Shown: positions 8,173-61,670 of the stretch, one piece after another | How the letters are laid out: every line of letters begins with the position of its first letter | Position numbering within the stretch: position 1 is the stretch's first letter | Source: Alphaproteobacteria bacterium | GTDB taxonomy: Bacteria; Pseudomonadota; Alphaproteobacteria; GCA-2731375 | Direction: 5' to 3' | Length of the DNA stretch: 64,000 nt | Assembly: GCA_965225945.1 (NCBI GenBank) | Contig: CBDDBZ010000024.1 | Span: forward strand, 32,001 to 96,000 | Notes under the pieces: model-generated | Told to the model about the DNA's origin: nothing | Database searches by the model: none | Seen by the model: only the letters and a program-made list of their open reading frames with translations | Position numbers and translations under genes: made by a program

Positions 8173-8517
8173 GCCTCGCTCTCCCTTCCCGCTTTGCCGT
8201 CCCGGCCGGCTGTTCTACCTTCGAGACCCGGGGCGGGACAAGGCGTGGGAACGAAAGCGCTCGCGAACCGTCGATCGAACGCCGCGATCACTGGACGGCG
8301 AGGGCGCGGATCGACTAAGAGTCGACCGACAACCCACGCAGACGATATGTCGGGCCGAAGCGACGATCAGGCGCGGCGTGGAGACGGGCAATGTTGACAC
8401 GGCTAGATTTATTGAACTTCAAGTCTTGGAGACATGCGGATCTGCGCTTCGGCCGCGTTACCGGGCTGTTCGGTCCCAACAGCTCGGGCAAGAGCAGCTT
8501 GCTGCAGTTTCTGTTGA

Positions 8518-8617
8518 TAGCCGGATCGCCTCCTCAATGCGCCTGCGCCGGCCCTTGCCTGCAGTCCAAGGAGACACACTACATATAGTGGGTGTGGGTG
8601 ATAACCGGATAGGCAAG
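8518..8617 (+). mobile_element. Right-end fragment (100 bp, with TIR) of the 755-bp element
   Basis: Identical to 24441-24540. Confidence 0.92.
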
Positions 8618-8688
8618 TATTGCTGACCGGGCTGTTCGGTCCCAACAGCTCGGGCAAGAACAGTTTCTGTTGATGCTGAAATCAGACT

Positions 8689-8832
8689 AAGAACGCCACC
8701 GACCGGGGATTGGTCCTGGATCTCGGTGGTCCCGACCAGCTCGTCGATCTCGGCACATTTAAGAACGCCACCGACCGGGGATTGGTCCTGGATCTCGGTG
8801 GTCCCGACCAGCTCGTCGATCTCGGCACATTT
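8689..8832. repeat. 72-bp perfect tandem duplication inside the ATPase gene
   Basis: aagaacgccacc...cggcacattt twice (8689-8760, 8761-8832). Confidence 0.92.
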
Positions 8833-22247: not shown

Positions 22248-23156
22248 TCAGGTCGCTGGCAGGACCCCAGGGGGAAGCGCCGCGCAGTGGCGCGCGATCT
22301 CACCGGGTCGCGTGAACCATACCCGCTCACGATGCGGGTGCTCGGCGCAATGCGCCAGAGCCGTGCGCAACACGCGCAAGCGAAACGGCTGGCCGACGAT
22401 GTAAGGGTGCAGCGCGATTGCGCAAACTAGCGGTCTGTCAACGCACTGCCGAACCATTTCGTCGAACTGGTTGACGATCATGTCGGCAAAGTCACGCGCA
22501 CTATGGTGTCGGTGCAGCTGTGCGGTAAAGTCGTTGAGCTCCAGCGGATAAGGAACCGCCAAGATTCGACCGGAGCGGGTCTTCAACCAAATCGGCTGAT
22601 CGTCGGCCGGCCAGTCGAGCAAATATTGATACTGAGCTTCCTGCAATAAATCTGGCGTCACCGCCGTTTCGGACAAGCTCGGGCTCAACCAGCCAGCTGG
22701 CAGGGTGCCGCTTCCCTGCGCAATCGTATCGGTTACGGTGCGGATAAGATTGTCTTCGTCCTCTGTCCACATACCCCGCTGCAACTCGGAACTGGTCCGG
22801 CCATGGGCGATGATCTCGTCCCCCCGCGCGACAATGCGGGCCGCGATCCGCGGTTGCGAACGAAATATCAGACTGTTGACCGTAAAAGCAACGGGCAGCC
22901 GCAATCCGTCGAGCATCGCAACCAAATTCCACAATCCGACACGGTGACCGTAGTCTCGCCAACCATAGTTTCGTTCGAGCTTCCACCCGCTCCACTGGCT
23001 CTGGCCGCTCGACCGGTCTTCGGCGACTCCGGTGCCGAATGCGAAATGCTCAACCGCTACTGAAACATAGAACGCCAGCCGTTTGTTTCCCGGCCAGGAG
23101 TAATCCGGGCGTCGGTCGATGACTGAGTAATCGTAACGGCCGTGGTGTGGGAGCAT
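22248..23156 (-). CDS. Polysaccharide deacetylase family (PuuE-like)
   Basis: WPGNKRLA, WRDYGHRVG and ALHPYIVGQPFR motifs. Confidence 0.88.
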   Translation of the reverse strand: MLPHHGRYDYSVIDRRPDYSWPGNKRLAFYVSVAVEHFAFGTGVAEDRSSGQSQWSGWKLERNYGWRDYGHRVGLWNLVAMLDGLRLPVAFTVNSLIFRSQPRIAARIVARGDEIIAHGRTSSELQRGMWTEDEDNLIRTVTDTIAQGSGTLPAGWLSPSLSETAVTPDLLQEAQYQYLLDWPADDQPIWLKTRSGRILAVPYPLELNDFTAQLHRHHSARDFADMIVNQFDEMVRQCVDRPLVCAIALHPYIVGQPFRLRVLRTALAHCAEHPHRERVWFTRPGEIARHCAALPPGVLPAT

Positions 23157-23159
23157 GGG

Positions 23160-23785
23160 TCAACTTCCTGGCACAACACCCGCTGGCAACGCAGTGACAT
23201 GTCGTGCGATCGCACGGGGATGAGCGAACCAGATAAGATCGCGCTGCGAATGATGGGCAATGTGCGCGAGCGCGTCGCGGACCAGCTTTAGCCGGAATGG
23301 CTGCCCGACCGTCATGGGGTGCATCGCAACCGCGCAGACGAGAGGCCGCTCGGTGCATTGTTCGATCATTTCATCGAACTGGTCGACGATCATATCAGCG
23401 AATTCACGTGCGCCCTGATGCCGAAACAGAATTGCGATTGAGTCGTTGACCTCCAACGGATATGGGACAGACAGGATCCGACCGCTACGCGTCTTCATCC
23501 AGAACGGTTGATCGTCGGCGCACCAATCCATGATGTACTCGTAGCCGGCCTCCTGAAGGAGATCGATGGTAACGTCACTATTGGACATCCCGGGGCCCAT
23601 CCATCCGCGTGGAGGGTTGCCCTCATGACGTTCGATGGTCTCCGTGACGGAGGCGATCATTCGCGCCTCGTCCTCGGCCCACATCGAGCCTTGATGCTCA
23701 GACTGGGTGCGACCATGACCGATCACTTCATCGCCGCGCGCGCGAACACGTTCCATGATCTCGGGACACTACTCGTAGATCAGAC
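23160..23785 (-). pseudogene. Second deacetylase paralog, 3' part (5' part at 29170-29451)
   Basis: Joins the 5' part across TSD GATCAGAC as ...NASSLIYE*CPEIMERV; also carries an in-frame TAG near 23769. Confidence 0.88.
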
Positions 23786-24060
23786 CTTGCCTATCCGGTT
23801 ATCACCCACACCCACTATATGTAGTGTGCACCCATTTTCCTGAGTAAAGCTCGGTGCAGGTCGAAGCGGAGATATCTCCGGCGATGCCGAGCAGGGACTC
23901 GGACGGCATTGTAGCGCCTTTTAGGCGACACTTTAGCGTGGTGGAAATCCTAATCATTGAGTCGGATTTGGCAAAACGCCACGTTGCATAAAGGACCGTC
24001 ACTTCATTGAAATTTATCTGAAATCGGAGGTGAACGACACCGATGGAATATTCCAGGAAA

Positions 24061-24369
24061 TCAGAGCTTCATTGAATTGTAGGATTCGAGTGCCGGATTA
24101 TTCACAAATAGCTCTGTGAACTGGTTTTCAAGTTCGCTCAATACGTCATATGAAGTAAACGGATTGAGGATCACGTTCTTGCGTGTCGCTTCGTCTTCGC
24201 TGCGACTCAAAACGCGCAGGAGACTAACAGGCGCGGACGGGTTCTTCGCAACGATTCGTGCCAGCGCGTCGCTTTCTTCGACTAGTGCCGTCAATCGCTC
24301 AGACGATGTCGTTTCATCAGCAGCTTCCCGTCTGGCCGTGGGTTTCTTCGTTTTTCCCTTGGTCGCCAC
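24061..24369 (-). CDS. Passenger: short leucine-rich-repeat-variant (LRV/HEAT-like) protein, 102 aa
   Basis: VAKNPSAPVSLLRVLS...TRKNVILNPFTS repeat pattern; GTG start; identical in three copies. Confidence 0.7.
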   Translation of the reverse strand: MATKGKTKKPTARREAADETTSSERLTALVEESDALARIVAKNPSAPVSLLRVLSRSEDEATRKNVILNPFTSYDVLSELENQFTELFVNNPALESYNSMKL

Positions 24370-24403
24370 CGTTCCGTCCCCCGATGTTAAGTACGTGACG
24401 TGA

Positions 24404-24432
24404 ATTAAACTCCGGTTCGGTTTTCAGAACAA
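24404..24432 (-). promoter_or_regulatory. Putative sigma70 promoter of the passenger gene
   Basis: TTGTTC-N17-TTTAAT on the minus strand, ~35 bp upstream of the GTG start. Confidence 0.5.
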
Positions 24433-24541
24433 TCAAGAATTAGCCGGATCGCCTCCTCAATGCGCCTGCGCCGGCCCTTGCCTGCAGTCCAAGGAGACAC
24501 ACTACATATAGTGGGTGTGGGTGATAACCGGATAGGCAAGC

Positions 24542-25364
24542 GTGAACCATCAAGCCGACGCCACGACGCCGACCGCGGGCGGCGCCAAGGTCCGCTACAT
24601 CAACGCGGAATGGCGGAACCGGGAGGACAGCCCGCGCATCGGCTCACGCGAGAGCCGGCGCGCCATGACCTCGTTCCAGGACGTGCTGGTGCACGACGTC
24701 AGGGCCGAATTCCAGGCGGGCCAGATCGATCTCGACCGCTCGGGCTTCACGCTGTGCGAGAACCTCACCGAATGCGGCGACTTCCGCGACGACGCGGTGA
24801 TCGAGGCGCAATACTATCCCGAGATGATCGACCTCGTCCGGCGGATGAGCGGCGCCGACCACGTCTTCGTCAGAGCGCACCTCGTACGCACCGAAATACC
24901 CACCGATTTCAACGACGGCTACGCGCGCTTCGTCCACTGCGACTTACAACATCCGGCTGATCGAGGAATTGGCGCATGAATTGCTGGCGCGATACGACGT
25001 CGAGGCGAAGCCGAACTGGACTTACGCCTGGTACAACACCTGGCAGCCCTTCGATCATCAGGTGCAGAAAAATCCGCTCGCCGTGATCGACTGGCAAAGC
25101 CTGCCCCTCGAGGACGTGATCGACTACTATTATACTGGCCGCGGCCTCGACAGCCTGACCGCGGCGCCCGTCTACAGCCCCGACCATCGGTTCGATCCCG
25201 GGGATGGAGACGACCGAGACACTGGTGATCAAGCAGTCGACGCGCGGCCCGGCCGGGCGGCGTATTGCCCGCACACTTCCTTCGATCTGCCCGGCAGCGA
25301 CGACTTGTTGCCCCGGCGCAGCATCGAAACTCGGTTCCTCGCCGTCTTCGAGGACGCCGCTTAA
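24542..25364 (+). pseudogene. CmcJ/NvfI-like oxidoreductase, frameshifted (cargo)
   Basis: LDRSGFTL, YYPE, VHCD / NTWQP, PLAVID, PHTSF, RRSIETR split over two frames near 24950. Confidence 0.75.
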
Positions 25365-26912
25365 AACACCAGCTCCACCAGGTAGGGACCTTCGGAGCGG
25401 AGGCCGGCGTCGAAGGCGCGCCGCAGGCCGTCCAGATCGTCGGCCCGGCTCGCCTCCACCCCCATGCCTCGGGCCATTTGGACCCAATCCAGGTCCGGCC
25501 GGTCGAGGCTCAGCATGTCGATCGCGCGGGGGCCGGGATTGCGGACACCGACGTTGGTGAGCTCGCCGCGCAGGATGTCGTAGCTGCGGTTGGCGAAGAT
25601 CAGCACGGTGATGTCGAGGTTCTCGCGCGCCATGGTCCAGAGCGACTGCGGCGTGTACATGGCGCTGCCGTCGCCGATGAAGGCCAGCACCTTACGATCG
25701 GGACAGGCGATCTGGGCGCCGATCGCCACCGGCATGCCGTAGCCGATCGCGCCGCCCCGGTTGTTGAACCAGTCGTGCGGCGGCGCGCCGGCGGTGAAGG
25801 GGAAGAAGCCCCGGCCGGAGGTCACCGATTCGTCGACCACGATGGCGCCTTCCGGCAGCAGGGAACCGATCACCTGGGCGATACCGTCGAGCGTGACGGC
25901 GCCGCTGGGCGCCTCCGGCCGGCCCGCCGGCGCGACCTGGGCCGGCGGCCTCGTGTGGGCGTCGAGCTCGCCGGCCAACGCCTCCAAGGCAGCGACGATG
26001 TCGCGCTCCACGCCGGCGAGCTCCACCACCTCGCAAGCCTCGGGCGTCAGCGCGCTGGGCTTGCCGGGATAGGCGAAGAAGGCCACGGGCGCGCGGGCGC
26101 CGACCAGCACCAGTCGCTCGACCTCGCAGAGAACCGCCAAGGCGCGCTCGACGACATAGGGAATGCGCGCCACCTGGACCCGGCCCGCGCCCCGGGCGAG
26201 CCGAGTGTTCGAGCCCTCGCTCAACAGGCCGCAGCCGGTCGCCGCCGCGATTCGTCCCGCTAGCTCCAGCCCCCTTTCGCCGAGCGCCTGGCCACCGAGG
26301 AGGAGCGTCGCCTTGCCGCCGCTGGCGCGGAGCGCCTCGGCCGAGGCGCGCACGGCGTCCTCCGAGACCGCCTGGCGCGGCGCCGGCTCGCGCGCCGTCA
26401 CCACATTCGCGGCCTCGTTCCAAGCGCTATCGGCGGGCAGGATCAGGGTCGCGATCCGGCCGGGAGCCTGGCGCGCCGCCTCGATTGCCAGGGCCCCGTC
26501 GGCGGCGATGGTGGTCGCGTCGGGCGAGGTCTTCACCCAATGGGACATCGGCCGGGCCACGCCTTCGACGTCGGAGGTCAGCGGCGCATTATGCTGGATG
26601 TGGTGGACGGCGTGGGTCGCCGACGATGTTGACGATGCCCGAATTCGCCTTCTTGGCGTTATGGAGGTTGGCCAGCCCGTTGGCGAGGCCGGGTCCCAGG
26701 TGCAGCAGGGTCGAGGCCGGCCGCTCGCGCATCCGGTAGTAGCCGTCGGCGGCGCCGGTGACCACGCCCTCGAAGAGGCCCAGGACGCAGCGCATTCCCG
26801 GCACATGGTCGAGGGCGGCGACGAAATGCATCTCCGAGGTGCCCGGATTGGCGAAGCAGATGTCGATGCCGCCGGCGAGCAGCGTGCGGACCAGGCTTTC
26901 GGCGCCGTTCAT
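25361..26912 (-). pseudogene. Acetolactate synthase large-subunit-like ThDP enzyme, frameshifted near 26610 (cargo)
   Basis: [25 protein letters not shown] and GDGSAMYT motifs over two frames. Confidence 0.88.
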
Positions 26913-27031
26913 GTCGCCCCCTCCCGTCTCGAGCAAGGCCGCCCGGCGAGGAGCGGCGAATCGCGTCCGGCATAACCGGCGGGGCGAGAAATGCCAAGCG
27001 ACAAGGGACCGATTTCGACTACCCTGCCCGC

Positions 27032-28321
27032 ATGCACAGGCTGCTCTTTCTCGATCCGGGCCACTTTCACGCCGCGCTCACGCTTCGCGCGGCCAATCCC
27101 CGGGTCGCAGACGAGATCCATCTCCATGCGCCCGAGGGGCCGGAGAGCCAGGCCTTCGTCGATCTGGTGGAAGGCTTCAACGCCCGGGCCGACGCGCCGA
27201 CGGCGTGGCGCTTGGAATGCCATCTCGGTGCGAATTCGCTTCACCGGTTGATCGAGGAGCGCCGCGGCGAGATCGTGATCCTGGCCGGACGCAACGATCG
27301 CAAACTCGCCACCATCCGCCGTCTGCGGGAGGCCGGATTCCACGTCCTGGCCGACAAGCCCTGGCTTACCGGGGCGGGGGCGCTGGGGGATCTCGCCGCC
27401 GCGACCACGCCCGGCCGGCCGCTGGCGATGGACATCATGACCAGCCGGCACATGGCGCTGGCGCGCCTGCGCCGCGCGCTCGTCGGGCAATCGGAGCTGT
27501 TCGGCGCCTTCGAGGCCGGGGGGCCCGGGCCGGCGATCGAGCAGACCTCCCGCCATCACATCCACAAGCTGGTGAACGGCCAGCCGCTCCGCCGGCCGGA
27601 CTGGTATTTCGATTGCCGGGTCCAGGGCGACGGGCTGGTCGACATCCAATCGCACCTGGTCGATCAGGCGCAGTGGTTGATCGCGACGCTGCACGGCCCG
27701 GAGGCCGAACGCGACATCGAGGTGATCCGGGCCCGGCGGTGGCCGACGCCGGTCGGCCGCGAGCTCTACGCCGAGAGCACGGGCGTCGAGGACTATCCGG
27801 AGCTGCCGGCCGGCGTGGTGGTGGACGATGTCATCCAGCTCGCCTGTAACGGCGTGATCGAATTTTCGATCGGCGGCGTGAGGGTGCGCCAGCGGGCCGA
27901 ATGGGGCGCCCGCGAAGCGGAAGGCGGCGGCGACCAGCAGCACGCGGTGGCGCGCGGCAGCGGTGCGCAACTCGTCCTGCGCCAGGGGCCGGAGACCAAC
28001 CACGCGGCGGAGCTGCATGTGGCATCGAGCGGGGCCCGAGATTTGGAATCCCGCCTGGCCGCCGCGGTCGCGGCGCTGGCCGCCGACTTTCCCGGCCTTT
28101 CGATGGCGCCCTCGGAGCTCGGCTTCCGGCTCACCGTCGCGCCCGGGCTCGACGGCGGCCACGAGAGCCACTTTCCCCTGGTGCTCGACGAATTCTTGGA
28201 TCTCTTGGACGGATCGGGCGACGGCGCGGCGCTGGCGGCGCGGATCGGTGCGCGCTACGCCCTCCTCGCCCGGGCTCGAGAAATTGCCGAGGATATCCCC
28301 CCGCCGCCCGACGCGCCCTAG
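27032..28321 (+). CDS. Gfo/Idh/MocA-like putative oxidoreductase (cargo)
   Basis: [24 protein letters not shown] and HLVD motifs. Confidence 0.75.
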
Positions 28322-28414
28322 AGCCCCGTGAAGCAGTCCTTCGCGTCGCTCAGGTCTTCTTGCGCCTGTAGCGGAGCCGGCGTTTCTTCCGCTTGCCTTT
28401 CCGGATCTTGGACG

Positions 28415-29169
28415 CTTGCCTATCCGGTTATCACCCACACCCACTATATGTAGTGTGCACCCATTTTCCTGAGTAAAGCTCGGTGCAGGTCGAAGCGGAG
28501 ATATCTCCGGCGATGCCGAGCAGGGACTCGGACGGCATTGTAGCGCCTTTTAGGCGACACTTTAGCGTGGTGGAAATCCTAATCATTGAGTCGGATTTGG
28601 CAAAACGCCACGTTGCATAAAGGACCGTCACTTCATTGAAATTTATCTGAAATCGGAGGTGAACGACACCGATGGAATATTCCAGGAAATCAGAGCTTCA
28701 TTGAATTGTAGGATTCGAGTGCCGGATTATTCACAAATAGCTCTGTGAACTGGTTTTCAAGTTCGCTCAATACGTCATATGAAGTAAACGGATTGAGGAT
28801 CACGTTCTTGCGTGTCGCTTCGTCTTCGCTGCGACTCAAAACGCGCAGGAGACTAACAGGCGCGGACGGGTTCTTCGCAACGATTCGTGCCAGCGCGTCG
28901 CTTTCTTCGACTAGTGCCGTCAATCGCTCAGACGATGTCGTTTCATCAGCAGCTTCCCGTCTGGCCGTGGGTTTCTTCGTTTTTCCCTTGGTCGCCACCG
29001 TTCCGTCCCCCGATGTTAAGTACGTGACGTGAATTAAACTCCGGTTCGGTTTTCAGAACAATCAAGAATTAGCCGGATCGCCTCCTCAATGCGCCTGCGC
29101 CGGCCCTTGCCTGCAGTCCAAGGAGACACACTACATATAGTGGGTGTGGGTGATAACCGGATAGGCAAG
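28415..29169. mobile_element. 755-bp TIR element, copy 2 (passenger ORF 28690-28998, minus strand)
   Basis: No differences from copy 1 seen; same orientation. Confidence 0.95.
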
Positions 29170-29451
29170 GATCAGACTACTCGCGTTCTGCGCCGCAGGA
29201 ATTTGGAACTCGTCGAGCACGTCCAATAAACGCCAAATTCCGACCCGAAGGCCATAGTCACGCCAGGCATGATTGCGCTGGGTTTGCGGCGCATCGGTCT
29301 TGAACGCGGGGTCGGAGCCCAAGCCAGTGCCGAATGCGAACGTCTCGATGTTATTGCCGACGTAGAATGCCAGTCTCTTACCGTCGGGCCAATCATAGAT
29401 TGGCCTTTCGTCGATCATCGACAGATCGTAGCGACCGTGAGTCGGTAGCAT
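29170..29451 (-). pseudogene. Second deacetylase paralog, 5' part
   Basis: MLPTHGRYDLS...WPDGKRLAFY...WRDYGLRVG. Confidence 0.88.
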
Positions 29452-29487
29452 TGACAATTCCTCGGATGACAGCCGGTTCCGGCCATC

Positions 29488-29516
29488 AGAGTAGCCATTC
29501 TTGGCCTCCACGGCAA
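29488..29516 (-). promoter_or_regulatory. Promoter-like module, copy A
   Basis: TTGCCG-N17-TACTCT within a repeat shared with 48120-48197 and 61635-61712. Confidence 0.55.
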
Positions 29517-29926
29517 TGCAGAAGCCGATCCGCGCAGGCTGGGTACTCTGCGTGCCGTCCATGCGGCCGGCGATGGCGATTTCCGAAGGCTGACTGACGG
29601 ATTTCTCACCATCGAGGCACACCTCTCCCGTCGTTTTCCTCCCTGCGATGGCTGCGTAGATCAAGCCGGCACCGGCGGCGTACGCAGCCGGACCATGCGC
29701 GCCAGGATCAGTCCAAAGATCCGTCCCGACACCAAGGTCTCGGCCATCCAGTGCGGGAGAAATGGGTCAACATTCTCCTGTTAGCACCTGCTAATATTAC
29801 GGAGAGTCTTGGGGGAACACCAGACGTCGATTCGGCGATTCCCGACATTCGACCGCCAAGCTCGTCTATTGGGGGTATGGTCCCCGTCGGGTCGGAGTGG
29901 CCGATTCGGTGATTCATAACCAATGC

Positions 29927-31149
29927 CACAGTACACGACTCGTTCATGCTGGCTTTGGCCTGGGCACCTGGACTGGTGGTTTTCCGGGGACGAGGAAACG
30001 AATCAGCTCAATGGCTTGACGCCTGTCGATAGGATTGACGAGCTGTCGCCTTATCCACTCGAAACCGTATCGGAAGATGGATTTTGCCATCCTTTTGTGG
30101 GTTTTGAGGCGGATCGGCTCGGCCTCGTGGAGCCAATCGCCGACTTTGTGCGCCCAGCAGAAGGTGATGGAAAGGACGGCGGTGAGCTTGGAGATGCGCT
30201 CCGGGTCGGTCATGTGGGTGTCTTCGAGGTTGAAGCCACGGGTTTTCAAGGCGGCGAAGAGGGTCTCGATTTGCCAGCGCTGGGCGTAGATGGCCAAGGC
30301 CTCCTCGGGCGCGTCGTTGGTCACGACGATCAACAGTTCGCCGGTCTTGAGATGGAGCGCGGCGACGAAGACGGGCCTGGCCTTGGGTTTTCTGGCCTCC
30401 GAGAGGCGCCTGGCGTTGGAGAGGATGCGGCTTTCCCCGGGTTTGAGGTCGCGAAACAGCTCCCTCGCCTTGACCATGCGACCACGCGTGTTGGCGATCT
30501 TGATGTTGGATCGGATGCGGATGTGAAAGGGGATGGCCTTTTCCTGCAACCATGCCAGCCAGGCGTCGCCGATGAATTCCCGGTCGGCCAGGAGGCTGGC
30601 GATCTTGTCGACCCCGAAGAGCCGGAGGACGTGTTCGAGGATCGCGATCCGCTCCTTGGTATTGGAATTGCCCGCCTTGTCGAGCACCCGCCAGCACACG
30701 GGAATGGCGATGGCGCGGTTGACGATGCCGATCATCAAGATGTTGACGTCGCGGCGACCCAGCCGCCAGTTGGTCCGGTCCATGGTCAGCCGCCACGGCC
30801 CCGCCTGGAGCCCCATCATCGCGACCAGGAACTCGGCGAGGCGATCGTAATCGAAATCGACTTGCTCGAAAAACCGTTGCAGGCGCCGATAGTTGGAGCT
30901 GGATCGCGCGCGCCCCGGAAAGTGGCAGGCCAAGTGAGAGAGGTTCACCGTCCGGGCGACGAACACGCCGAAGACCAAGACGCAAAGGCTCTCCAGACGG
31001 CTCTTGCGAAAGGCGAAGCCGCATCGTAGCGTCTCACGCAGGGCGTTGATCGGGTTGTCTCGCATGATTTCCCTCTTGACTCGTCGTGGAGTGAATCGGG
31101 AATCCTACAACCTTTTCAACGTCCTACGTAAATGCCGTCGTGTACCATG
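29927..31149 (-). mobile_element. IS4-family IS (IS10/ISAba1-like), 1223 bp
   Basis: IRs cacagtacacgac / catggtacacgac; 9-bp TSD aaccaatgc at 29918-29926 and 31150-31158. Confidence 0.9.
29944..31065 (-). CDS. IS4-family transposase
   Basis: MDRTNW, LADREFIG and YREK-type YAQRWQIETLFAALK motifs. Confidence 0.93.
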   Translation of the reverse strand: MRDNPINALRETLRCGFAFRKSRLESLCVLVFGVFVARTVNLSHLACHFPGRARSSSNYRRLQRFFEQVDFDYDRLAEFLVAMMGLQAGPWRLTMDRTNWRLGRRDVNILMIGIVNRAIAIPVCWRVLDKAGNSNTKERIAILEHVLRLFGVDKIASLLADREFIGDAWLAWLQEKAIPFHIRIRSNIKIANTRGRMVKARELFRDLKPGESRILSNARRLSEARKPKARPVFVAALHLKTGELLIVVTNDAPEEALAIYAQRWQIETLFAALKTRGFNLEDTHMTDPERISKLTAVLSITFCWAHKVGDWLHEAEPIRLKTHKRMAKSIFRYGFEWIRRQLVNPIDRRQAIELIRFLVPGKPPVQVPRPKPA

Positions 31150-31274
31150 AACCAATGCACAAAACACGACATTCAGATTAGCTAATGTATAGTCAGTTCA
31201 GCTCCGGTCGGTCCTCAATGGCGACCGCGATCCGGCGCGTCGCGATGTCGGCGAGGGGCGAGGGATGGCCGGCG

Positions 31275-35877: not shown

Positions 35878-37565
35878 ATGCAAGAGCCCAAGCAAACTCT
35901 GGCGCACGTCATCGCCGATCAGATGGCCAAGTACGGGGGGTTCATCCTCGTCGGCCTGTTCCTGCTTCCGGTCATCATCGTGCCCATCTGGGTCGGCGAC
36001 CTCGCGCGGTTGCTGGAGATCCTCGAGGAATTCCTGCCGATCCTGATGTTGATGTCCCTCGCGATCCTGCTCTTCACGGGCTATCCGGTGGCCTTCATTC
36101 TGGGCGGGTTGGCGATTTGCTACGGCTTCGTGGGATGGTTCTTCGGAATTTTCGAGATCCAAGAGTTCTTCAATTTCGTGCCGCGCATCTGGATCGGCGC
36201 CGCCGAGAACCTGGTGCTCGTCGCGGTGCCCGCCTTCATCGTCATGGGCATCATGATGGAGCGGAGCGGCGTTGCCCACCGCATGCTTTATTCCTGCCAG
36301 GTCTTGCTGCGCCGGGTGCCGGGCGCGCTCTGCCTCTCCGTCACCGTGATGGGCACGATCCTCGCGGCGATGACCGGAATCATCGGCGCGTCGGTGACGA
36401 TGATGAATTAAACTCCGGTTCGGTTTTCAGAACAATCAAGAATTAGAGCGGCGTTGCCCACCGCATGCTTTATTCCTGCCAGGTCTTGCTGCGCCGGGTG
36501 CCGGGCGCGCTCTGCCTCTCCGTCACCGTGATGGGCACGATCCTCGCGGCGATGACCGGAATCATCGGCGCGTCGGTGACGATGATGACCGCCATGGCGC
36601 TGCCGACGATGCTCAAGCAGGGCTACGATCAGGGCCTGGCGACGGGCTCGATCTGCGCCTCCGGTTGTCTCGGCATCCTGATCCCGCCCTCGATCATGCT
36701 GATCATCATGGCGGATCTGCTCTCGATCTCGGTCGGCAGCCTGTTCATGGCGGCGCTCGGCCCGGGACTGATACTCGCCTCGCTGTATCTGATCTACATC
36801 TTCTTGATCTCCACATTTCGGCCCTCGGTCGCGCCGCCGCTACCCTCGGAGATGCTGAACTTGCCGCGCAAGGAAATGCCCCCGTTGATCCTGAAGGGCT
36901 TCCTTCCGCCGGTCTTCCTGATCGCGCTCATCAAATGCTCGATCCTGTTCGGCTGGGCCACCCCCAGCGAGGCGGGCGCGGTGGGCGCCTTCGGGGCGTT
37001 CGTTCTCGCTGCCTTCTACGGGACGTTGAAATGGCCGATGCTCAGGTCCGTTTGCCACACCTCGGCGAACACGATCGCGATGGTCTTCTTCATCATCATC
37101 ACCGCGACCTGCTTCGCCTACGTCTTCCGCTCGCTCGGCGGCGACGATGTGGTCGATGGTTTGATCCGCGAGGCGGGCCTCGACACCTGGGGCCTGCTGT
37201 TCCTGATCATGGGCATCGTCTTCGTGCTGGGCTTCTTCCTCGATTGGCTGGAGATCACGCTCATCATCCTGCCGATCTTCGCCCCGATGGTGGCGACCTT
37301 CGACTTCGGCGATCACGTGGCGAAGATGGACACGCTCTACTGGTTCACGGTGCTGCTGGCGATCAATTTGCAGACCTCGTTCCTGACCCCGCCGTTCGGC
37401 TATGCCCTGTTTTACCTGAAGGGGATCGCGCCGCCGGAGGTCACGCTTCTCAGCATCTATCGCGGGATCATTCCGTTCGTCATCCTGCAGCTCATCGGGC
37501 TGGGGATCGTGCTGAGGTTTCCGGAGATTGCCTTGTGGCTGCCTAGAGCGGTCTATGGCGGCTGA
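35878..37565 (+). pseudogene. dctM: TRAP large permease disrupted by a 143-bp duplication plus a 39-bp foreign insert
   Basis: 36264-36406 is repeated at 36446-36588; the insert brings a TAA at 36409-36411; LGILIPPS and SFLTPPFG lie downstream. Confidence 0.88.
36404..36446. mobile_element. 43-bp internal fragment of the 755-bp element
   Basis: Identical to 24401-24443. Confidence 0.9.
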
Positions 37566-38281: not shown

Positions 38282-38991
38282 CGCGCTTCAGGTGTGAAGC
38301 GCATCGCCGGGCCGCCCCAAGCCAGCCCGGGGCCGCATTCTCACCGATTCCTGAATGTGGGAAAGTACACGTGACGCGAAGCGAAGGACGTCTTCACGGG
38401 GGACGAAATCGGGTAGGCGGGTTCCTCGCGGTTCCCGCCTCCCACACCACCGGGCATACGTTCTACGTACCACGGCGGTTTCCGGTTAGTTGCAACGCTC
38501 GGAACCTGTCGGCTAGGGGGATGAGCCCCTGGCCGTCGAACCAAGCCAGGGTCATGGCCTCGGTGGCTTGGGGGCTGAGGGACTTGCGCCACCAGCCCTT
38601 GCCGGAGAGAGCCAAGATCCATGCCCGCCATTCGGGCACCCCAAGGCTTCGCAGAAAATCCGCTTGCGCCTTGGTGCGCTTGCATTGCTTGAGCCGGACA
38701 CAGCGCAGTTTTCGGCGGATCCATCCGTCGAGACGCCGTAGTTGTCTCCCGCAACGGGCATGGCGGAAATACGTCACCCAACCGGCGAGGAAGCTGTTCA
38801 GCTCGCCGACCATGCGCGCGAGGCTGACGCCCCGGTTGCGCCGGGTGATTTCGCGAACCCGTTGCTTCGCCCGCCGCAGGCTTTGGGGCGCAATGCCGAG
38901 CGATCCATCCGGCAAAAGTCGGTGGCCGAGGAACCTGCGTTCCCAGACCGGAGCGACGGCACTTTTCTCCTGGTTGATCTGAAGATGCAAC

Positions 38992-39746
38992 CTTGCCTAT
39001 CCGGTTATCACCCACACCCACTATATGTAGTGTGCACCCATTTTACTGAGTAAAGCTCGGTGCAGGTCGAAGCGGAGATATCTCCGGCGATGCCGAGCAG
39101 GGACTCGGACGGCATTGTAGCGCCTTTTAGGCGACACTTTAGCGTGGTGGAAATCCTAATCATTGAGTCGGATTTGGCAAAACGCCACGTTGCATAAAGG
39201 ACCGTCACTTCATTGAAATTTATCTGAAATCGGAGGTGAACGACACCGATGGAATATTCCAGGAAATCAGAGCTTCATTGAATTGTAGGATTCGAGTGCC
39301 GGATTATTCACAAATAGCTCTGTGAACTGGTTTTCAAGTTCGCTCAATACGTCATATGAAGTAAACGGATTGAGGATCACGTTCTTGCGTGTCGCTTCGT
39401 CTTCGCTGCGACTCAAAACGCGCAGGAGACTAACAGGCGCGGACGGGTTCTTCGCAACGATTCGTGCCAGCGCGTCGCTTTCTTCGACTAGTGCCGTCAA
39501 TCGCTCAGACGATGTCGTTTCATCAGCAGCTTCCCGTCTGGCCGTGGGTTTCTTCGTTTTTCCCTTGGTCGCCACCGTTCCGTCCCCCGATGTTAAGTAC
39601 GTGACGTGAATTAAACTCCGGTTCGGTTTTCAGAACAATCAAGAATTAGCCGGATCGCCTCCTCAATGCGCCTGCGCCGGCCCTTGCCTGCAGTCCAAGG
39701 AGACACACTACATATAGTGGGTGTGGGTGATAACCGGATAGGCAAG
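38992..39746. mobile_element. 755-bp TIR element, copy 3 (passenger ORF 39267-39575, minus strand)
   Basis: One substitution seen versus copies 1 and 2; 8-bp TSD GATGCAAC at 38984-38991 and 39747-39754. Confidence 0.95.
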
Positions 39747-40864
39747 GATGCAACCTGCCTTGGAGGAATTTGGCCACCGAGGCCATCACCCGTTCGCCTG
39801 CCGCCTGGCTGCGAACATAGATGTTCACATCGTCGGCGTAACGGCAGAAGCGATGGCCCCGCGCCTCCAGCATCTGGTCCAGGTCGTCCAGTAGAAGATT
39901 GGCCAGCAGCGGCGACAGCGGGCCGCCTTGCGGCGTACCCTCATGGCGCCGGATGCAGACGCCGGCTTGCATCATCCCCGCTTGCAGGAAACGCCGGATG
40001 ATGCGCAGCAGGCGCTTGTCGCCAATGCGCCCAGCCAGTCGGGACATCAGAATGTCGTGCTTGACCCGGTCGAAGAACGTCTCCAAATCCAGGTCGACCA
40101 CGATCCCGTGGCCTTCGGCGACGTATTTGCCTGCTTGGGCCAGAGCATCGTGGGCGCTCCGTCCCGGACGGAAGCCAAAACTCGAACCCGAGAAAGCCGG
40201 ATCGAGAATTGGCTGAAGGACTTGCAGGATGGCTTGCTGAACCAGACGGTCCAGCACCGTCGGGATGCCCAATTGCCGCATCCCGCCCCCCGGCTTGGGA
40301 ATCGAGACCCCCTTCACCGGTTGTGGCCGATAACCGCCTCGGGCCCACTGCGCCACCAGCGCATCCTTGTGATCGGCGAGCCAGGGCCGTAGGTCTAGGA
40401 TGGTCATCCCATCCACCCCCGCCGACCCCTTATTCGCCTTCACCCGCCTGTAGGCTTGGCTCATGTCGGTGGCGATGAAAAACCGCGCTTAGATGGTGAT
40501 TTCAGCGACATCGGGCATCGTGGCGCTGTAGCTGCGTGGTTTGCAGGCGGGAGTTGGCTCGGCGCAGCGGTGGGTAAGTAGCCCGCCGCGGCGACCGCCA
40601 AGAGTCTGGCGGCGGCGGGCTGCTTATCCACCGCGGGCGGGCGTCTCGATTCCTGTTTTGGCTGGCTGGCGGCGGCGGTTCCGCGGACCTGACAAGGGGA
40701 GCCGCGGGAGTACACTCGGGCCGCTGAGAACGATGCGGCGCCGGCCCCGTTTGCTTGCTGGCAACGACCGGCACCGCACCCCCCGAGCCATGCAAGGCAC
40801 GACCCATATGCGCAGTATCGTGCGGGTTTGGGCGTGGGTCCACCCCGTTCTCATCGGCTGCGCG

Positions 40865-44491: not shown

Positions 44492-45223
44492 ATAGCCACA
44501 GCGCGAAACAAAATCAGCCAAGCCCAAAAGCATCCCGTCAGCCAACCGCCACCGACCGCTCAAAAAGAGCACCATATAAGCGCACCCTGGAACCACCGCT
44601 AACAGGCTCAGGTTGGCTGAACTCACCACCCGTTCCATCAGGTCTTGCGTCAAGGCTCGTTGCTGTTCCAACGCCGTGACCGCTTGTGGCTCCTCGCAGG
44701 GTCCAGTTCCGGTTCCGCCGTCACCGGAGGCCTCGGGGCGCAGCGTCTTCATCAGGGCCTCGTCAAAAAGGTCCAGTTGATAAACACCGCCTTGCCGCCG
44801 CTCCACGCTCATCGAGTTGATCCAGACTGCTCCTTGCTACTCGGATTCGGCCCTTCGGCGCCTCTCGGCCCCTACTATGGCCTCGGCTGACTTCTCCACC
44901 GCCATCGCTCCCCGTCGCCGGTTCGCTACTCGGATCGCCCGAGAGCGCTGGAGATCTCCCTGGGTAAGACGCTGATCTTTCCTCCGGTCGCGGCCGGATT
45001 TACCAATGCGACGTCCGAACGACTATCGGGCCTCGCCATCCATTGCTGGCTTACCCCATCGCACCGGCCTGATATCCGGTTTCTGTTCGTCCGCTCCAGA
45101 TTTTGCCTCCCGCTTCCTCCCCACCCCGCCTCGCGGCGACGCAGTTGCCTTCAGCTATCGGTTCCGGTCGTTACGGCCCGTAGAGAACTTCCATCTCCTA
45201 GATCAGCGCCATGCCAGGCACAC

Positions 45224-46445: not shown

Positions 46446-47464
46446 GGCTCAATTCGTGAATTGTATGCATTAGTGATAGAGTGCCTGGAACGTCAGGAGG
46501 TTGGGTTATGGACGGCAAGGGTTTCCAGGTGTGGCTTTCGGCGGCGCGCGGGCTGACGCGCGCGCAGCGGCGCGAGGCGCTCGCGGTGCTGTCGGGCCGG
46601 AGCGAGGGCGAGGCATCGAAGGCCGCGATCGAGCTTGGTGTGGACGAGGCCCGGCGCTGTCCGCACTGCGCGAGCGAAGGGGCGGTTTCGCGCGGTATGG
46701 CGCGGGGTCTGCGGCGCTACCAGTGCAAGGGCTGCGGCAGGACCTTCAACGCGCTGAGCGGTACGCCGCTGTCGGGCTTGCACCACAAGGAACGCTGGCT
46801 GTCGTTCGGGGCGTCGCTGGCGAAGGGGGAGACGGTGAAGGCGTCGGCGGCGCGCTGCGACGTGGCGGTGAGCACGGCGTTCCGCTGGCGTCACCGGTTT
46901 CTGGCGGCGGCGCGGAGCGATTCGGAGGTGCTCAAGGGGATCGTGGAAGCGGACGAGACCTACGTCCTGGAGAGCCGGAAGGGCGCGCGCGGGCTGGGGC
47001 GCAAGGCACGGCGGCGGGGCGGCAAGGCGAAGAAGCGCGGCCTCTCGCGCGAGCAGGTACCGGTTCTCATGGCGGCGGACCAGAGCGGAACGACGGTCAG
47101 CGCGGTGCTGCCCAGGGTCGATGCGGCGGCGCTCACGGCTGCCCTCGACCCGGTGGTCGCGAAGGACGCCCTGCTGGTCTCCGACGGCGGCGCGAGCTAC
47201 CCACCGTGCGCCGCCGCGCTCGGGGTGAGCCACGAAGCACTCAACCGCTCGATGAACGTTCGGGGCGATCTGCATGTGCAGACGGTGAACAGCCGCCACA
47301 GCCGGTTGAAGGACTTCCTGCGTCCCCGCCGCGGCATCGCCACCCGCTATCTGGACAACTACCTGAGCTGGTTCCACCTCGTCGGCCTCGCCCCCGGCGC
47401 CAATGACCGAGCCTGCCTCGCCGCCGCCGTAACAAGGTGACGCATACAATTCACGAATTGAGCC
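46446..47464 (+). mobile_element. IS1595-family IS, second type (1019 bp); transposase 46508-47440
   Basis: 23-bp TIR GGCTCAATTCGTGAATTGTATGC; 8-bp TSD aaaatttt; CPHC/CKGC, VEADET, VSDG and GIATRYLDNYLSW motifs. Confidence 0.93.
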
Positions 47465-48067: not shown

Positions 48068-48155
48068 TTCCACGACTCCCTCTCCCCGCAGCACTATCGG
48101 CACCTAACAGGCAGTTGAACCGACATCCCCCCAGTGACTGTCGGTTCCGACCATC

Positions 48156-48184
48156 AAAGTAGCCATTCGGGCCCTCGATGGCAA
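48156..48184 (-). promoter_or_regulatory. Promoter-like module, copy B
   Basis: TTGCCA-N17-TACTTT upstream of the SRPBCC gene. Confidence 0.55.
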
Positions 48185-48197
48185 TTCCGAGGCCGAT

Positions 48198-48275
48198 GAG
48201 CAGCTTGAAGACCATGGCGAGCGCCGTCTTGCGGCCGAGGCAGCCCTTGGTCTTTTCGGTCCTGAGTCGCAGCGT
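48198..48275 (-). pseudogene. IS256-like transposase C-terminal remnant
   Basis: TLRLRTEKTKGCLGRKTALAMVFKLL. Confidence 0.6.
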
Positions 48276-48332: not shown

Positions 48333-48986
48333 TTCGCCGTAGGGACGCGGGTTACCCCGCGCCCCCGGCACAAAACCCGGCGTGCGGAACTACCGCACCG
48401 GGCTTCCACCTCGGATGTTTGACGGCAAAGCAACTTGCCGTACACGCTCCAGCCCCTGGGTCACGCTTACCCGGCTCGGTGTCCGGTACGTATCGGGTTG
48501 AACCATGTTCTCCTCGGCGCCTCCCCTTGGCTCCACCAACTCCGCCGTCGATTGTTCGACTTTGTTCGCCGGCTTCACGGCTACTATGGGAGGCTCAGAC
48601 TTCTGGCGGCCGTTCATCGCCGGCGACGCCCCCTTGGGGCTTCCCAGCACGACCCGAGCCCACCAAGCGGTCTCGGGTAGCCACCAGATCTCCCGGTTCC
48701 CTGACAAAGTGCGTATGCGCATGCCTGGGGTCTTGGACCACGCCGGGCCGGCAAACCGCTCGCGCTAACGCGGTGCGCCATGTTGTCTTCCCCATAACGG
48801 GAGAGGGTCGACACCCGGGACGACAGCTGTTTCACGGCTCGATATCCCAGCCTACGCACACCCCTACCGACGCTTCGCCGACACCCTCGCGGATGCCAAC
48901 GCACGGCTCGGAGGCCGATGTGGTTCGCTACTCCTTCATCGCAGAGGACTTGCACCTCCAACACCTTGCCGGTTTTTCCGGCGCAC
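48333..48986 (-). mobile_element. ORF-less group II intron Z (654 nt), nested in DVI of X
   Basis: GTGCGCCGG 5' end; RT deleted between ...QGLERVRQ and ...VKHPR; DV AAGCCCGGTGCG...CGCCGGGTTT; DVI ending CCCTACGGCGAA. Confidence 0.88.
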
Positions 48987-58799: not shown

Positions 58800-59420
58800 C
58801 CCCCACCACCTCGTCCGCCCAAAAACGAGGTGACTTGGACTAGCCAGGCTCAGGGGGTCAAATTTGGACGCCGATCACCCCTCAACAGGGGTCAACTTTG
58901 CACGCCGTTCCACACCTGCGTTGCTGACCCACGTTCCCCTTGGCTCCGCCCCTTCCCTCCACCGGCTCCGCCGCCTCGCACAAGGCTTTGTTCGTCGGCT
59001 TCCCAGGTACTATGGGCGAATCTGACTTCTCTCGAGCGTGCGTCATCGGCTACGGCCCTTCGGGCCTTCCCGATGCGGACCGCGCAAACGCAAGGACGGC
59101 CACTCGAGAGATCTCCCGGTTTCCGCTCAGGCGATTTCCATGCGTGCGTGGGCTCTACGACCGCGCAAGGCCCTCCGAGCGCTCGCCAATGCGCGCTCGT
59201 CGGTGTGGCCTTCCCCATAGACCCACAGGGTCGGCGCCTCGAATGCGCATTTTTTGCGGCTCAATACCCAGCCCACATGTACCCCTGTCAACGCTTCGCC
59301 TCGCCCTCGCGGACCGCAGGCGCATGACTCGGGGCCGGTGTGGATGGCTAACCCTTCACCGTACGGCTCTCTCATCCGCTACTCCTCGCCGGCGATACCG
59401 GCGCACGGGTCATTCTACTT

Positions 59421-61528: not shown

Positions 61529-61670
61529 GATTTCGCTCCCTCGCTCGCGTGCTGGCAACACCGCTAGACGCCGCCGCCCGGCCGCTGACGTCGGAGGCCG
61601 ACATGGTTGATCGGCTGGGCGTTACAACTATGAGCCGACATCCCCCAGACGACTGTCGGTTCCGACCATC

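What the first reader, a model, noticed from the sequence alone, without database searches (positions are those of the whole stretch)
23778..29177. Two non-autonomous copies moved 3.9 kb of host genes as a composite transposon
Seen: the TSD GATCAGAC flanks only the outer ends of copies 1 and 2. The inner flanks (cgtgaacc; cttggacg) match neither the TSD nor each other. Removing 23786-29169 plus one TSD rejoins the halves of a deacetylase gene. The cargo is a CmcJ/NvfI-like gene, an ALS-like ThDP enzyme and an oxidoreductase. Inference: the whole 5.4-kb unit either transposed in one step or entered through recombination or cointegration via the element. Either way the element reshuffles metabolic genes with no transposase on board.
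Basis: partly seen in the sequence, partly recalled or inferred. Interest (0 to 1): 0.75.

Follow-up and report, generated by a model that had tools for sequence, protein, structure and literature searches.

The report
Composite transposon built from defective IS copies
Two identical copies of a small transposase-less insertion element bracket 3.9 kb of the bacterium's own genes and sit together inside a deacetylase gene like a classical composite transposon, a known kind of structure whose cargo here is mostly already broken.

Summary
Two 755-bp elements (23786-24540 and 28415-29169) are 100% identical, lie in direct orientation and have perfect 43-bp inverted ends. They bracket 3,874 bp. Only the outer flanks share an 8-bp duplication (GATCAGAC; chance about 3e-5).

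Removing the unit plus one duplication makes the deacetylase collinear with intact 299-aa orthologues. The window's allele, however, carries a TAG where the orthologues have Tyr.

The element is a deletion derivative of an ISAcr1-like IS1595-family insertion sequence. It shares the ends, keeps a 32-codon transposase remnant and makes 8-bp duplications. It carries an LRV_2 ORF and no transposase.

The cargo consists of near-identical copies of genes that are intact in close relatives. Here the CmcJ-like gene has at least three indels, the ThDP enzyme gene has one frameshift, and only the oxidoreductase gene is intact.

No donor locus, scar or cognate transposase was found, because the source species is absent from the genome collection. 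One-step composite transposition (about 0.45) cannot be separated from recombination into a resident copy (about 0.38). Misassembly (about 0.1) remains possible.

Composite transposons built from non-autonomous elements are already known, for example TIME-COMP. This is a new member of a known kind, of modest interest.

The parts
23778..23785 (.). Left copy of the 8-bp target-site duplication, GATCAGAC.
23786..24540 (+). Copy 1 of the 755-bp non-autonomous ISAcr1-like (IS1595 family) element. Perfect 43-bp inverted repeats lie at 23786-23828 and 24498-24540.
   Evidence: structure; ends 84-90% identical to the ends of ISAcr1.
23805..23900 (-). Remnant of the last 32 codons of an ISAcr1-like transposase gene. 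Its final codons run into the terminal inverted repeat.
   Evidence: tblastn of the ISAcr1 transposase, residues 307-338, 65.6% identity, E 1e-8. The same hit is found in copy 2, and residues 308-338 at 64.5% identity in copy 3.
24061..24369 (-). 102-aa passenger ORF with an LRV_2 (leucine-rich repeat variant) domain. It is the only recognisable gene in the element.
   Evidence: PF25591, E 4.5e-8, 33.4 bits against a cut-off of 27. (the exact protein is on 44 contigs; its 90% cluster has 278 members).
24542..25364 (+). CmcJ/NvfI-family oxygenase pseudogene. It has the same start (MNHQADATT) as the intact 275-aa relatives, and that start lies 1 nt after copy 1. The frame changes at about 24944, and there is an out-of-frame patch at about 25195-25245.
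25361..26936 (-). ThDP-dependent 'acetolactate synthase large subunit'-like pseudogene with one frame change at about 26613-26616.
   Evidence: TPP_enzyme_N and TPP_enzyme_C on separate frames. (PRK07586 profile positions 1-100 on one frame and 100-513 on the other).
27032..28321 (+). Intact 429-aa oxidoreductase (Oxidoreduct_C domain), 428 of 429 residues identical to relatives' proteins.
28322..28414 (.). 93 nt between the oxidoreductase stop codon and copy 2, left unassigned. Two minus-strand frames end in stop codons here (31 and 20 codons) and could be the tail of a gene cut by copy 2.
   Evidence: six-frame reading, GC3 0.73 and 0.76. (no family or local match).
28415..29169 (+). Copy 2 of the element, identical to copy 1.
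29170..29177 (.). Right copy of the 8-bp target-site duplication, GATCAGAC.
29170..29451 (-). 5' part of the interrupted PuuE-like polysaccharide-deacetylase-family gene (94 codons, ending ...NASSLI).
23160..23785 (-). 3' part of the same deacetylase gene. It has an in-frame TAG at 23771-23769 where the orthologues have Tyr.
   Evidence: (TIGR03212, weak).
38992..39746 (+). Copy 3 of the element (one mismatch, at position 54). It is a simple insertion with the duplication GATGCAAC (38984-38991 and 39747-39754) inside a group II intron reverse transcriptase/maturase ORF.
8518..8617 (+). Solo right-end fragment of the element (element positions 656-755).
36404..36446 (+). 43-nt internal fragment of the element (element positions 616-658), lying between 143-bp perfect direct repeats of a DctM gene.

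Best explanation
Proposed structure. 23786-29169 is a non-autonomous composite (compound) transposon. Each 755-bp end is a deletion derivative of an ISAcr1-like IS1595-family insertion sequence. It keeps both terminal inverted repeats and the last 32 codons of the transposase gene, but carries an LRV_2 ORF in place of the transposase.

Proposed sequence of events.
1. Two such copies first inserted independently on either side of a three-gene stretch elsewhere in the same lineage's genome. One landed 1 nt upstream of the CmcJ-like start codon and the other 93 nt beyond the oxidoreductase stop codon.
2. A cognate full-length IS elsewhere in the cell then supplied transposase in trans.
3. That transposase paired the left end of copy 1 with the right end of copy 2 and moved the whole 5,384 bp in one step into the deacetylase gene, making the 8-bp duplication GATCAGAC.
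4. The copy is redundant, because intact versions exist in close relatives, and it is decaying.

Shown: the anatomy; the family of the ends; the 8-bp rule; the intact target allele in relatives; the lineage-own origin of the cargo.

Inferred: the donor arrangement, the trans-acting transposase, and the single-step move.
For: Structure.
- The two copies are identical and complete, in direct orientation, with four intact 43-bp ends.
- An 8-bp duplication flanks the outer ends only. Its chance probability is 3e-5.

Eight-bp duplications are the rule for this element and its relatives.
- Copy 3: GATGCAAC.
- An ISAcr1 copy on pACRY02: CAATATAT.
- The window's two other IS1595 elements: AAATTGTA and AAAATTTT.

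Family of the ends.
- The ends are 84-90% identical to ISAcr1 ends in 8 of 11 matching plasmid records.
- A transposase C-terminal remnant is present.
- Larger database variants still join the element-specific segment to the C-terminal half of an IS1595 transposase (P0361 and P0367).

Target and cargo.
- Intact 299-336-aa orthologues read straight across the insertion point.
- The cargo proteins are near-identical to intact proteins on other contigs. The CmcJ-like gene matches P0062 at 98.5% over residues 1-134. The oxidoreductase matches P0009 at 428 of 429 residues.
- A contig length of 1,906,737 is listed both for those cargo relatives and for exact copies of the window's flanking paralogue and PhyH gene.

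Precedent. Experimentally captured composite transposons made of two non-autonomous elements, in either orientation and with family-typical duplications, are described in PMC4133298 (passages read).
Against: - No donor locus, no second copy of the unit and no empty donor scar was seen. The best full-length match had only 55% identity, and none of the 43 had the CmcJ-like gene next to the oxidoreductase.
- The exact cargo proteins occur on one contig only.
- No transposase with the C-terminus that the element's own inverted repeat encodes was found. None of the 120 listed ISAcr1 relatives (of 6,365 scoring) has it, and the best shares 19 of 28 terminal residues. Among the 18 hits of the remnant search (11 sequences read), no full-length transposase with that C-terminus appeared.
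- The window's own IS1595 transposases are only about 30% identical to ISAcr1's and have unrelated ends.
- The final structure is exactly what recombination into a resident single copy would also give.
- Element fragments with long target duplications elsewhere in the window show that processes not mediated by transposase also act on this element.
- How IS1595-family transposases move DNA, and how sharply transposition falls with length, is not known to me.
Confidence: 0.45

Rival explanations
1. Entry through a resident copy. A single element first transposed into the deacetylase gene and made the GATCAGAC duplication. The cargo, with a second copy, was added later without new transposition.

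There are three possible routes:
- homologous recombination of a circle (one element plus cargo) that had been excised by recombination between two direct copies at the native locus;
- repair of a break in the resident copy, templated on the two copies flanking the native cargo (ectopic gene conversion);
- an IS26-style targeted cointegration of a translocatable unit.
For: - The end product is identical to what is seen: an outer duplication, unmatched inner flanks and direct orientation, which circle insertion requires.
- The copies offer 755 bp of perfect homology, and the element is very abundant. The exact ORF is on 44 contigs, and there are three full copies in 64 kb.
- Element fragments joined to long duplications of the target, with breakpoints at the same element position (about 656-658), show recombination- or replication-based events at this element in the same window.
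- PMC4133298 notes database copies of its non-autonomous elements that lack duplications and attributes this to homologous recombination between copies (passage).
Against: - It needs more events: a prior simple insertion plus excision plus reintegration, or a double template switch.
- No lone-element allele of the deacetylase and no scar was seen. Protein searches could not have shown either, however.
- The other complete insertions checked in the window all keep matched duplications: copy 3 and two IS1595 elements, 3 of 3. Scrambling between copies is therefore not rampant here.
- IS26-type targeted cointegration is known (recalled) only for the IS6 family.
Confidence: 0.38
2. Assembly artefact. 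Only one element sits in the deacetylase gene. The cargo lies elsewhere between two other copies, and the assembler threaded the wrong path through the identical 755-bp repeats.
For: - The repeats are identical, so the path through them is undetermined by sequence alone.
- The exact frameshifted cargo pieces and the exact oxidoreductase are seen on a single contig of 139,671 bp.
- The window holds other odd local structures that could be consensus errors: 143-bp and 72-bp perfect duplications and element fragments.
- The cargo carries several indels while the flanking genes match database proteins exactly.
Against: - One contig runs through three copies of the same 755-bp repeat and several other repeated ISs. 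Short-read graphs normally break there, so long reads that would span 5.4 kb are likely (inference, not checked).
- Both false joins would have to be made consistently.
- The three copies themselves show no indel noise.
- One of the CmcJ lesions is a complex multi-base replacement rather than a homopolymer slip. This is inferred from comparing the window DNA with the relatives' protein.
Confidence: 0.1
3. In-situ origin. The cargo reached the deacetylase gene by some other route, and the two elements inserted later at its edges.
For: None specific. It is considered only for completeness.
Against: - Each later insertion would carry its own matched 8-bp duplication, but neither copy does.
- The outer flanks would not be a duplication of each other, and their removal would not restore collinearity with intact orthologues.
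Confidence: 0.02

Closest known systems
TIME-COMP1 and TIME-COMP2: composite non-autonomous transposons made of two Tn3-derived miniature elements in Pseudomonas (PMC4133298; abstract and passages read)
   Same: - Two copies of a transposase-less derivative flank unrelated DNA.
- The copies can be in the same orientation (TIME-COMP2).
- The core has no transposition genes.
- The size is similar (2.5 and 3.9 kb).
- The whole unit is flanked by the duplication typical of the family.
   Different: - The family differs (Tn3, 5-bp duplications, 262-bp elements without an ORF).
- Those units were caught transposing into a trap plasmid. Here mobility is only inferred.
- The ends here are 755 bp long and carry an ORF.
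MITE-flanked structures in Acinetobacter: identical MITEs flanking class 1 integrons, and two MITE-297 copies flanking 76 kb on pA297-3 (as described in the discussion of PMC6382973; passages read)
   Same: Identical non-autonomous elements bracket cargo 'comparable to a composite transposon'.
   Different: - Those elements are on plasmids and carry resistance or mercury cargo.
- Their parent IS families differ.
- Here the cargo is decaying chromosomal metabolic genes in an uncultured bacterium.
Classical composite transposons (Tn5, Tn10, Tn9; the Tn5 example is in PMC10969869, passage read; the rest is recalled)
   Same: IS-cargo-IS, in which the outer ends are used and a family-typical duplication flanks the whole unit.
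   Different: In those, at least one flanking IS encodes the transposase. Here neither does.
Mobile insertion cassettes (MICs): IS ends around passenger genes without a transposase (the term is recalled; papers seen only as the listing)
   Same: A single 755-bp copy fits this description: IS1595-type ends, a passenger ORF (LRV_2) and no transposase.
   Different: - MICs are described as single units.
- Here two of them act, or appear to act, as the arms of a larger unit.
IS26 pseudo-compound transposons and translocatable units (recalled)
   Same: - Direct IS copies bracket the cargo.
- The outer duplication is inherited from the first insertion.
- The cargo is added next to a resident copy.
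   Different: - Those depend on an IS6-family transposase.
- Here the ends are of the IS1595 type and no such activity is known for that family.
ISAcr1 (IS1595 family) of Acidiphilium cryptum, plasmid pACRY02, NC_009468.1, locus L001 positions 1801-2880
   Same: - The terminal 48-68 nt are 84-90% identical.
- The transposase C-terminus is encoded into the inverted repeat.
- It makes an 8-bp duplication.
   Different: - ISAcr1 is 1,080 bp long with a 338-aa transposase and imperfect repeats.
- The window's element is 755 bp long, has perfect 43-bp repeats (both resemble the transposase-3' end more than the other end), an unrelated interior and no transposase.

Membership tests
IS1595-family (ISAcr1-like) non-autonomous derivative | Terminal inverted repeats related to those of a transposase-encoding member of the family. 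| tested here: met
   Element positions 1-68 and 708-755 are 83.8% and 89.6% identical to an ISAcr1 end, and 83.3% identical to the other end. Eight of the 11 matching plasmid records are annotated ISAcr1.
IS1595-family (ISAcr1-like) non-autonomous derivative | An 8-bp target-site duplication. | tested here: met
   Copy 3 has GATGCAAC and the composite has GATCAGAC. ISAcr1 on L001 has CAATATAT. The window's other IS1595 elements also have 8-bp duplications. That 8 bp is the family norm is otherwise recalled from ISfinder.
IS1595-family (ISAcr1-like) non-autonomous derivative | No functional transposase, but a trace of descent from one. | tested here: met
   The only Pfam hit in the element is LRV_2. 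A 32-codon transposase C-terminal remnant is present. Intermediate forms exist in the database (P0361 and P0367).
IS1595-family (ISAcr1-like) non-autonomous derivative | A cognate autonomous partner able to act on these ends is present in the same cell. | tested here: inconclusive
   No partner lies in the window: the 18-nt end motif occurs only at the element's own ends (7 of 7 matches). None of the 120 listed ISAcr1 relatives has the C-terminus encoded by the repeat. The rest of the source genome could not be searched.
MITE in the strict sense | Small (roughly under 600 bp) and non-coding. | tested here: not met
   The element is 755 bp long and has a conserved 102-aa ORF. It is better described as cassette-like (MIC-like).
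Composite (compound) transposon | Two copies of one IS-type element with intact outer ends bracket unrelated DNA. | tested here: met
Composite (compound) transposon | A family-typical duplication flanks the whole unit and not the individual copies. | tested here: met
Composite (compound) transposon | An uninterrupted target allele exists. | tested here: met
   This was tested at the protein level only. P0189, P0192, P0193, P0195, P0196, P0197 and others read ...NASSLIYEYCPEIMERV... across the insertion site.
Composite (compound) transposon | At least one arm supplies the transposase. | tested here: not met
   Neither arm encodes one. At most the unit is a non-autonomous composite.
Composite (compound) transposon | The same unit is seen at a donor or second site, or is observed to transpose as a unit. 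| tested here: inconclusive
   The genome-contig scan found no close relative of the source. The exact cargo proteins are on one contig only. A transposition assay is not possible with these tools.
IS26-type pseudo-compound transposon | IS6-family arms and transposase. | tested here: not met
   The arms are of the IS1595 type.

The most novel reading that the evidence does not exclude
The LRV-carrying 755-bp element may be more than a passive hitch-hiker. On this reading it is a very abundant, lineage-wide vehicle for rearranging genes in an uncultured, IS-laden gammaproteobacterium. It would build composite units from chromosomal operons. It would also seed templated insertions with long target duplications from a hotspot at element position about 657. 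Its conserved LRV ORF would contribute to its own mobilisation or maintenance. If so, transposase-less IS1595 derivatives would be a distinct, self-promoting class of gene shuffler.
Probability: 0.1. Interest if true: 0.55.

Novelty: new member of a known kind. Interest (0 to 1): 0.3.

Why it matters
If the structure is real, it is a clean natural example of transposase-less IS derivatives bracketing ordinary chromosomal genes and relocating them. It comes from an IS family (IS1595/ISAcr1) and an uncultured lineage where I found no such report. My literature check was limited: a search for 'ISAcr1' returned 0 papers, and for 'IS1595' plus 'MITE' I saw only the listing.

It shows how gene duplication and pseudogene formation proceed in IS-rich genomes. 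The moved copy and the target are both decaying.

It does not change what is known about composite transposons. It offers no demonstrated functional gain.

Tried and rejected
1. Donor search. It returned 43 loci, and the best full-length identity was 55%. The source species is therefore not there. None of the 43 loci has a CmcJ-like neighbour. Only 1 of 43 (L004) has a weak ThDP-enzyme hit 5-6 kb away. Hence there is no donor, no scar and no conserved synteny to report.

2. The plasmid collection. No record covers 80% or more of the element (0 of 11). The cargo matches only distant ALS genes at 66-68% identity (86 records).

3. The 93 nt next to copy 2.
- I then sent the same reference to the search of protein representatives (0 hits).
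- I found afterwards that the reference window:28322-28414:- is the wrong frame, the antisense read-through frame. The same wrong frame had been used.
- That negative result therefore says nothing about the two frames that end in stop codons.
- Those two frames later gave no Pfam hit and no local tblastn hit.
- Whether copy 2 cut a gene at the donor remains open.

4. Exact look-ups of junction ORFs (deacetylase 5' part fused to the repeat, and the two ThDP pieces). Four of the 8 queries were not in the collection. This says nothing about how common the insertion is.

5. The cognate transposase was not identified.

6. The neighbouring IS4-like element (29944-31065) and the window's IS1595 copies were checked as possible partners. 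They were rejected because their ends are unrelated.

7. An 8-nt direct repeat (ACTACTCG) straddling the target site was considered as the footprint of an earlier event. It was rejected because the spacing matches the paralogue and the orthologues exactly, with no extra codons.

8. The Rfam scan found nothing in 23778-29177. All 5 hits are group II intron domains elsewhere in the window.


Full report
**What is there.**
The window holds three full copies of a 755-bp element: 23786-24540, 28415-29169 and 38992-39746.
- Copies 1 and 2 are identical at all 755 positions and lie in the same orientation. Copy 3 differs at one position, position 54.
- Each copy has perfect 43-bp terminal inverted repeats.
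- The 8 bases left of copy 1 and the 8 bases right of copy 2 are both GATCAGAC. The inner flanks are CGTGAACC and CTTGGACG.
- At this window's base composition, two given 8-mers agree with probability 3.05e-5.
- Copy 3 has its own 8-bp duplication, GATGCAAC. Removing copy 3 and one duplication in silico restores an open group II intron reverse transcriptase/maturase frame.

The element therefore makes 8-bp duplications. In the finding's region, only the outer ends of the pair carry one.

**The target.**
- Removing 23786-29169 and one duplication joins a 94-codon 5' part (29451-29170, minus strand) to the 3' part (23785-23163) in the same frame. The joined reading has the same spacing as the tandem paralogue at 22248-23156.
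- A protein search with the 3' half found a 90%-identity cluster of 106 members with full-length 299-aa proteins.
- Seven of these, aligned with the two halves, read straight across the junction (...NASSLIYEYCPEIMERV...; two have H at the third position after LI).
- One of them, P0189, bears an accession consecutive to that of a member of the paralogue's cluster. The tandem pair is therefore uninterrupted in a relative.
- P0197 even shares the window's upstream leader, and matches 29562-29161 and 23783-23163 at 96% and 99% identity.

The target is now doubly dead. It may even have been dead before the insertion.

**What the element is.**
- It has no transposase. Its only family match is a 102-aa ORF with an LRV_2 domain.
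- Against 72,556 plasmid records, 11 matched and none covered 80% of the element. Eight of the 11 matched element positions 1-68 at 83.8% identity, under genes annotated 'IS1595-like element ISAcr1 family transposase'.
- On pACRY02 that IS is 1,080 bp long and is flanked by the 8-bp duplication CAATATAT. The element's two ends match its ends at 83-90% identity.
- The last 32 residues of the ISAcr1 transposase match copies 1 and 2 just inside the left repeat at 65.6% identity (E 1e-8), and copy 3 over 31 residues at 64.5%. The final codons lie within the repeat itself.
- A search with that remnant returned 18 proteins. Of the 11 I read, six carry the whole remnant region behind unrelated or out-of-frame N-termini. 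Two (P0361 and P0367) join the element-specific segment directly to the C-terminal half of an IS1595-type transposase. Less-deleted intermediates therefore exist.
- The exact LRV ORF is on 44 contigs and its 90% cluster has 278 members. The element is abundant.

It is a non-autonomous, cassette-like derivative of an ISAcr1-like IS1595-family element.

The window's other IS1595 elements (1113-2142 and 46446-47464) have unrelated ends, and the two copies that tblastn matched (1187-2038 and 59495-60346) encode transposases only about 30% identical to ISAcr1's. The element's 18-nt end motif occurs nowhere else in the window (7 of 7 matches are its own ends; expected 0.01). Any transposase acting on the element must therefore come from outside the window.

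I could not identify that transposase. None of the 120 listed ISAcr1 relatives (6,365 scored) ends in the residues that the repeat encodes.

**The cargo (24541-28414, 3,874 bp, 69.7% G+C against 65.0% for the window).**
- It holds a CmcJ/NvfI-family gene, a ThDP enzyme of the PRK07586 'acetolactate synthase large subunit' type, and an Oxidoreduct_C protein.
- Exact and 90%-cluster look-ups show intact, near-identical versions on other contigs. There are 275-aa CmcJ-like proteins (P0062, P0067) and 429-aa oxidoreductases (P0009, 428 of 429 residues identical).
- Contig lengths of 1,906,737, 416,279 and 224,571 recur for both genes.
- 1,906,737 is also the longest contig listed for exact copies of the window's paralogue and of its PhyH gene. 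This is a fingerprint argument only, because the tool gives no genomic context.

The cargo is therefore the lineage's own DNA. In relatives with an intact deacetylase it must lie elsewhere.

The window's copy is decaying.
- The CmcJ-like gene keeps the relatives' start (1 nt after copy 1). It changes frame at about 24944 and has a further out-of-frame patch, so at least three indels.
- The ThDP gene changes frame at profile position 100, about 26613-26616.
- Only the oxidoreductase gene is intact.
- The last 93 nt before copy 2 are unassigned. An earlier search of them was in the wrong frame and is void.

**How it most likely arose.**
The anatomy is that of a composite transposon whose arms are non-autonomous. 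I rank one-step transposition of the 5,384-bp unit by a transposase supplied in trans first, at about 0.45. It needs the fewest events. It also has an experimental precedent in another family: TIME-COMP1 and TIME-COMP2, two transposase-less miniature elements in either orientation, captured on a trap plasmid with family-typical duplications (PMC4133298; abstract and passages).

The same end product would result if a lone copy first inserted at GATCAGAC and the cargo plus a second copy then entered through it. The routes would be a recombining circle, templated break repair, or targeted cointegration. I put this at about 0.38.
- In its favour are the direct orientation, the 755 bp of perfect homology and the element's abundance.
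- Also in its favour are two odd sites in the same window, where fragments of the element sit between long duplications of the target with breakpoints at the same element position (about 656-658). One is at 8518-8617, between imperfect 48-58-nt repeats. The other is at 36404-36446, between perfect 143-bp repeats. Such sites are not products of ordinary transposition.
- Against it are the extra steps. In addition, the three other complete insertions I checked all keep matched duplications.

Misassembly through the identical repeats (about 0.1) cannot be excluded without reads. I count it as unlikely because a contig that runs through three identical 755-bp repeats probably rests on long reads. 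That is an inference.

**What could not be done.**
It gave 43 loci, the best full-length match was 55% identical, and none of the 43 had the cargo's gene order. The donor locus, the scar and DNA-level empty sites therefore remain unseen.

**Comparison and verdict.**
Composite-like structures bracketed by non-autonomous elements are in print, as follows.
- MITEs flank class 1 integrons, and two MITE-297 copies flank a 76-kb region. Both are described in the discussion of PMC6382973 (passages).
- TIME-COMP is described in PMC4133298.
- A 2024 review of prokaryotic MITEs uses 'composite' only for classical IS-driven transposons (PMC10969869, 2 occurrences).
- I found no paper mentioning ISAcr1 (0 papers). 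I did not read the 17 papers that mention both IS1595 and MITE (listing only).

This is a new member of a known kind. It is a tidy example with a mostly dead cargo in a dead target, inside a region crowded with IS1595, IS4-like, IS21, IS91 and IS110 elements and group II introns. Interest is 0.3.

Noticed in passing
window 36264-36588: A DctM transporter gene is broken by a perfect 143-bp tandem duplication of its own sequence (36264-36406 and 36446-36588). A filler of about 39-43 nt, identical to element positions 616-658, lies between the two repeats. Both junctions show 2-3 nt of microhomology. Removing one repeat and the filler would restore the gene. This looks like template switching or break repair, not transposition.
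   Followed up: partly
window 8460-8673: A P-loop ATPase gene is interrupted by the last 100 nt of the element (positions 656-755, at 8518-8617) plus TATTGCTG. The insert lies between imperfect direct repeats of the target (58 nt and 48 nt). The element breakpoint is the same (about 656-658) as at 36.4 kb, which suggests a hotspot in the element.
   Followed up: partly
window 8688-8831: A perfect 72-nt tandem duplication lies just downstream of the site above (family D14).
   Followed up: no
window 29457-29556, 48125-48224, 61640-61739: A repeat of about 100 nt (61-76% identical) lies just upstream of three minus-strand genes: the interrupted deacetylase, a Polyketide_cyc2 gene and a TauD gene. 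It may be a shared leader or an RNA element. Rfam gave no match at gathering thresholds.
   Followed up: partly
window 23769-23771 (minus strand): A nonsense codon (TAG, where the orthologues have Tyr) lies three codons after the LI encoded by the duplication, in the deacetylase gene. The allele also has two substitutions relative to the closest orthologues (Q for H and D for G).
   Followed up: yes
window 23765-23785 and 29170-29185: The 8-mer ACTACTCG occurs on both sides of the target duplication, 15 nt apart in the rejoined sequence. Spacing against the orthologues shows no extra codons, so I take it as chance.
   Followed up: yes
window 38466-40488: Copy 3 of the element sits inside the reverse transcriptase/maturase ORF of a group II intron. 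The window has five Rfam group II intron domain hits (44850-45140, 48728-48952, 50653-50877, 59151-59372) and several reverse transcriptase fragments, some cut by other ISs (IS110 at 54602-55693).
   Followed up: partly
window 1113-2142, 46446-47464, 59421-60313, 29915-31170: Other insertion sequences are present. Two distinct IS1595-family elements have 8-bp duplications (AAATTGTA and AAAATTTT). A third copy is 94% identical to the first over the compared 300-nt repeat. An IS4-like element lies next to the deacetylase, and its exact transposase is on 161 contigs in the protein collection.
   Followed up: partly
protein P0011 (relative of window 27032-28321): In a relative whose longest listed contig is 1,906,737 bp, the oxidoreductase is cut short at residue 373 and ends in five unrelated residues. 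The native cargo locus is therefore itself disrupted there. The new tail is not encoded by this element's repeat in any frame.
   Followed up: no
plasmid hits H1-H3: Three sphingomonad plasmids (Rhizorhabdus, Sphingopyxis, Sphingomonas) match element positions 3-126 at 72.6% identity, with no annotated feature under the match. They may be remnants of related IS ends.
   Followed up: no
window 23786-23828 and 24498-24540: Both ends of the element are the same 43 nt. They resemble the transposase-3' end of ISAcr1 (89.6%) more than its other end (83.3%). The element may therefore have been built from two copies of one IS end.
   Followed up: partly
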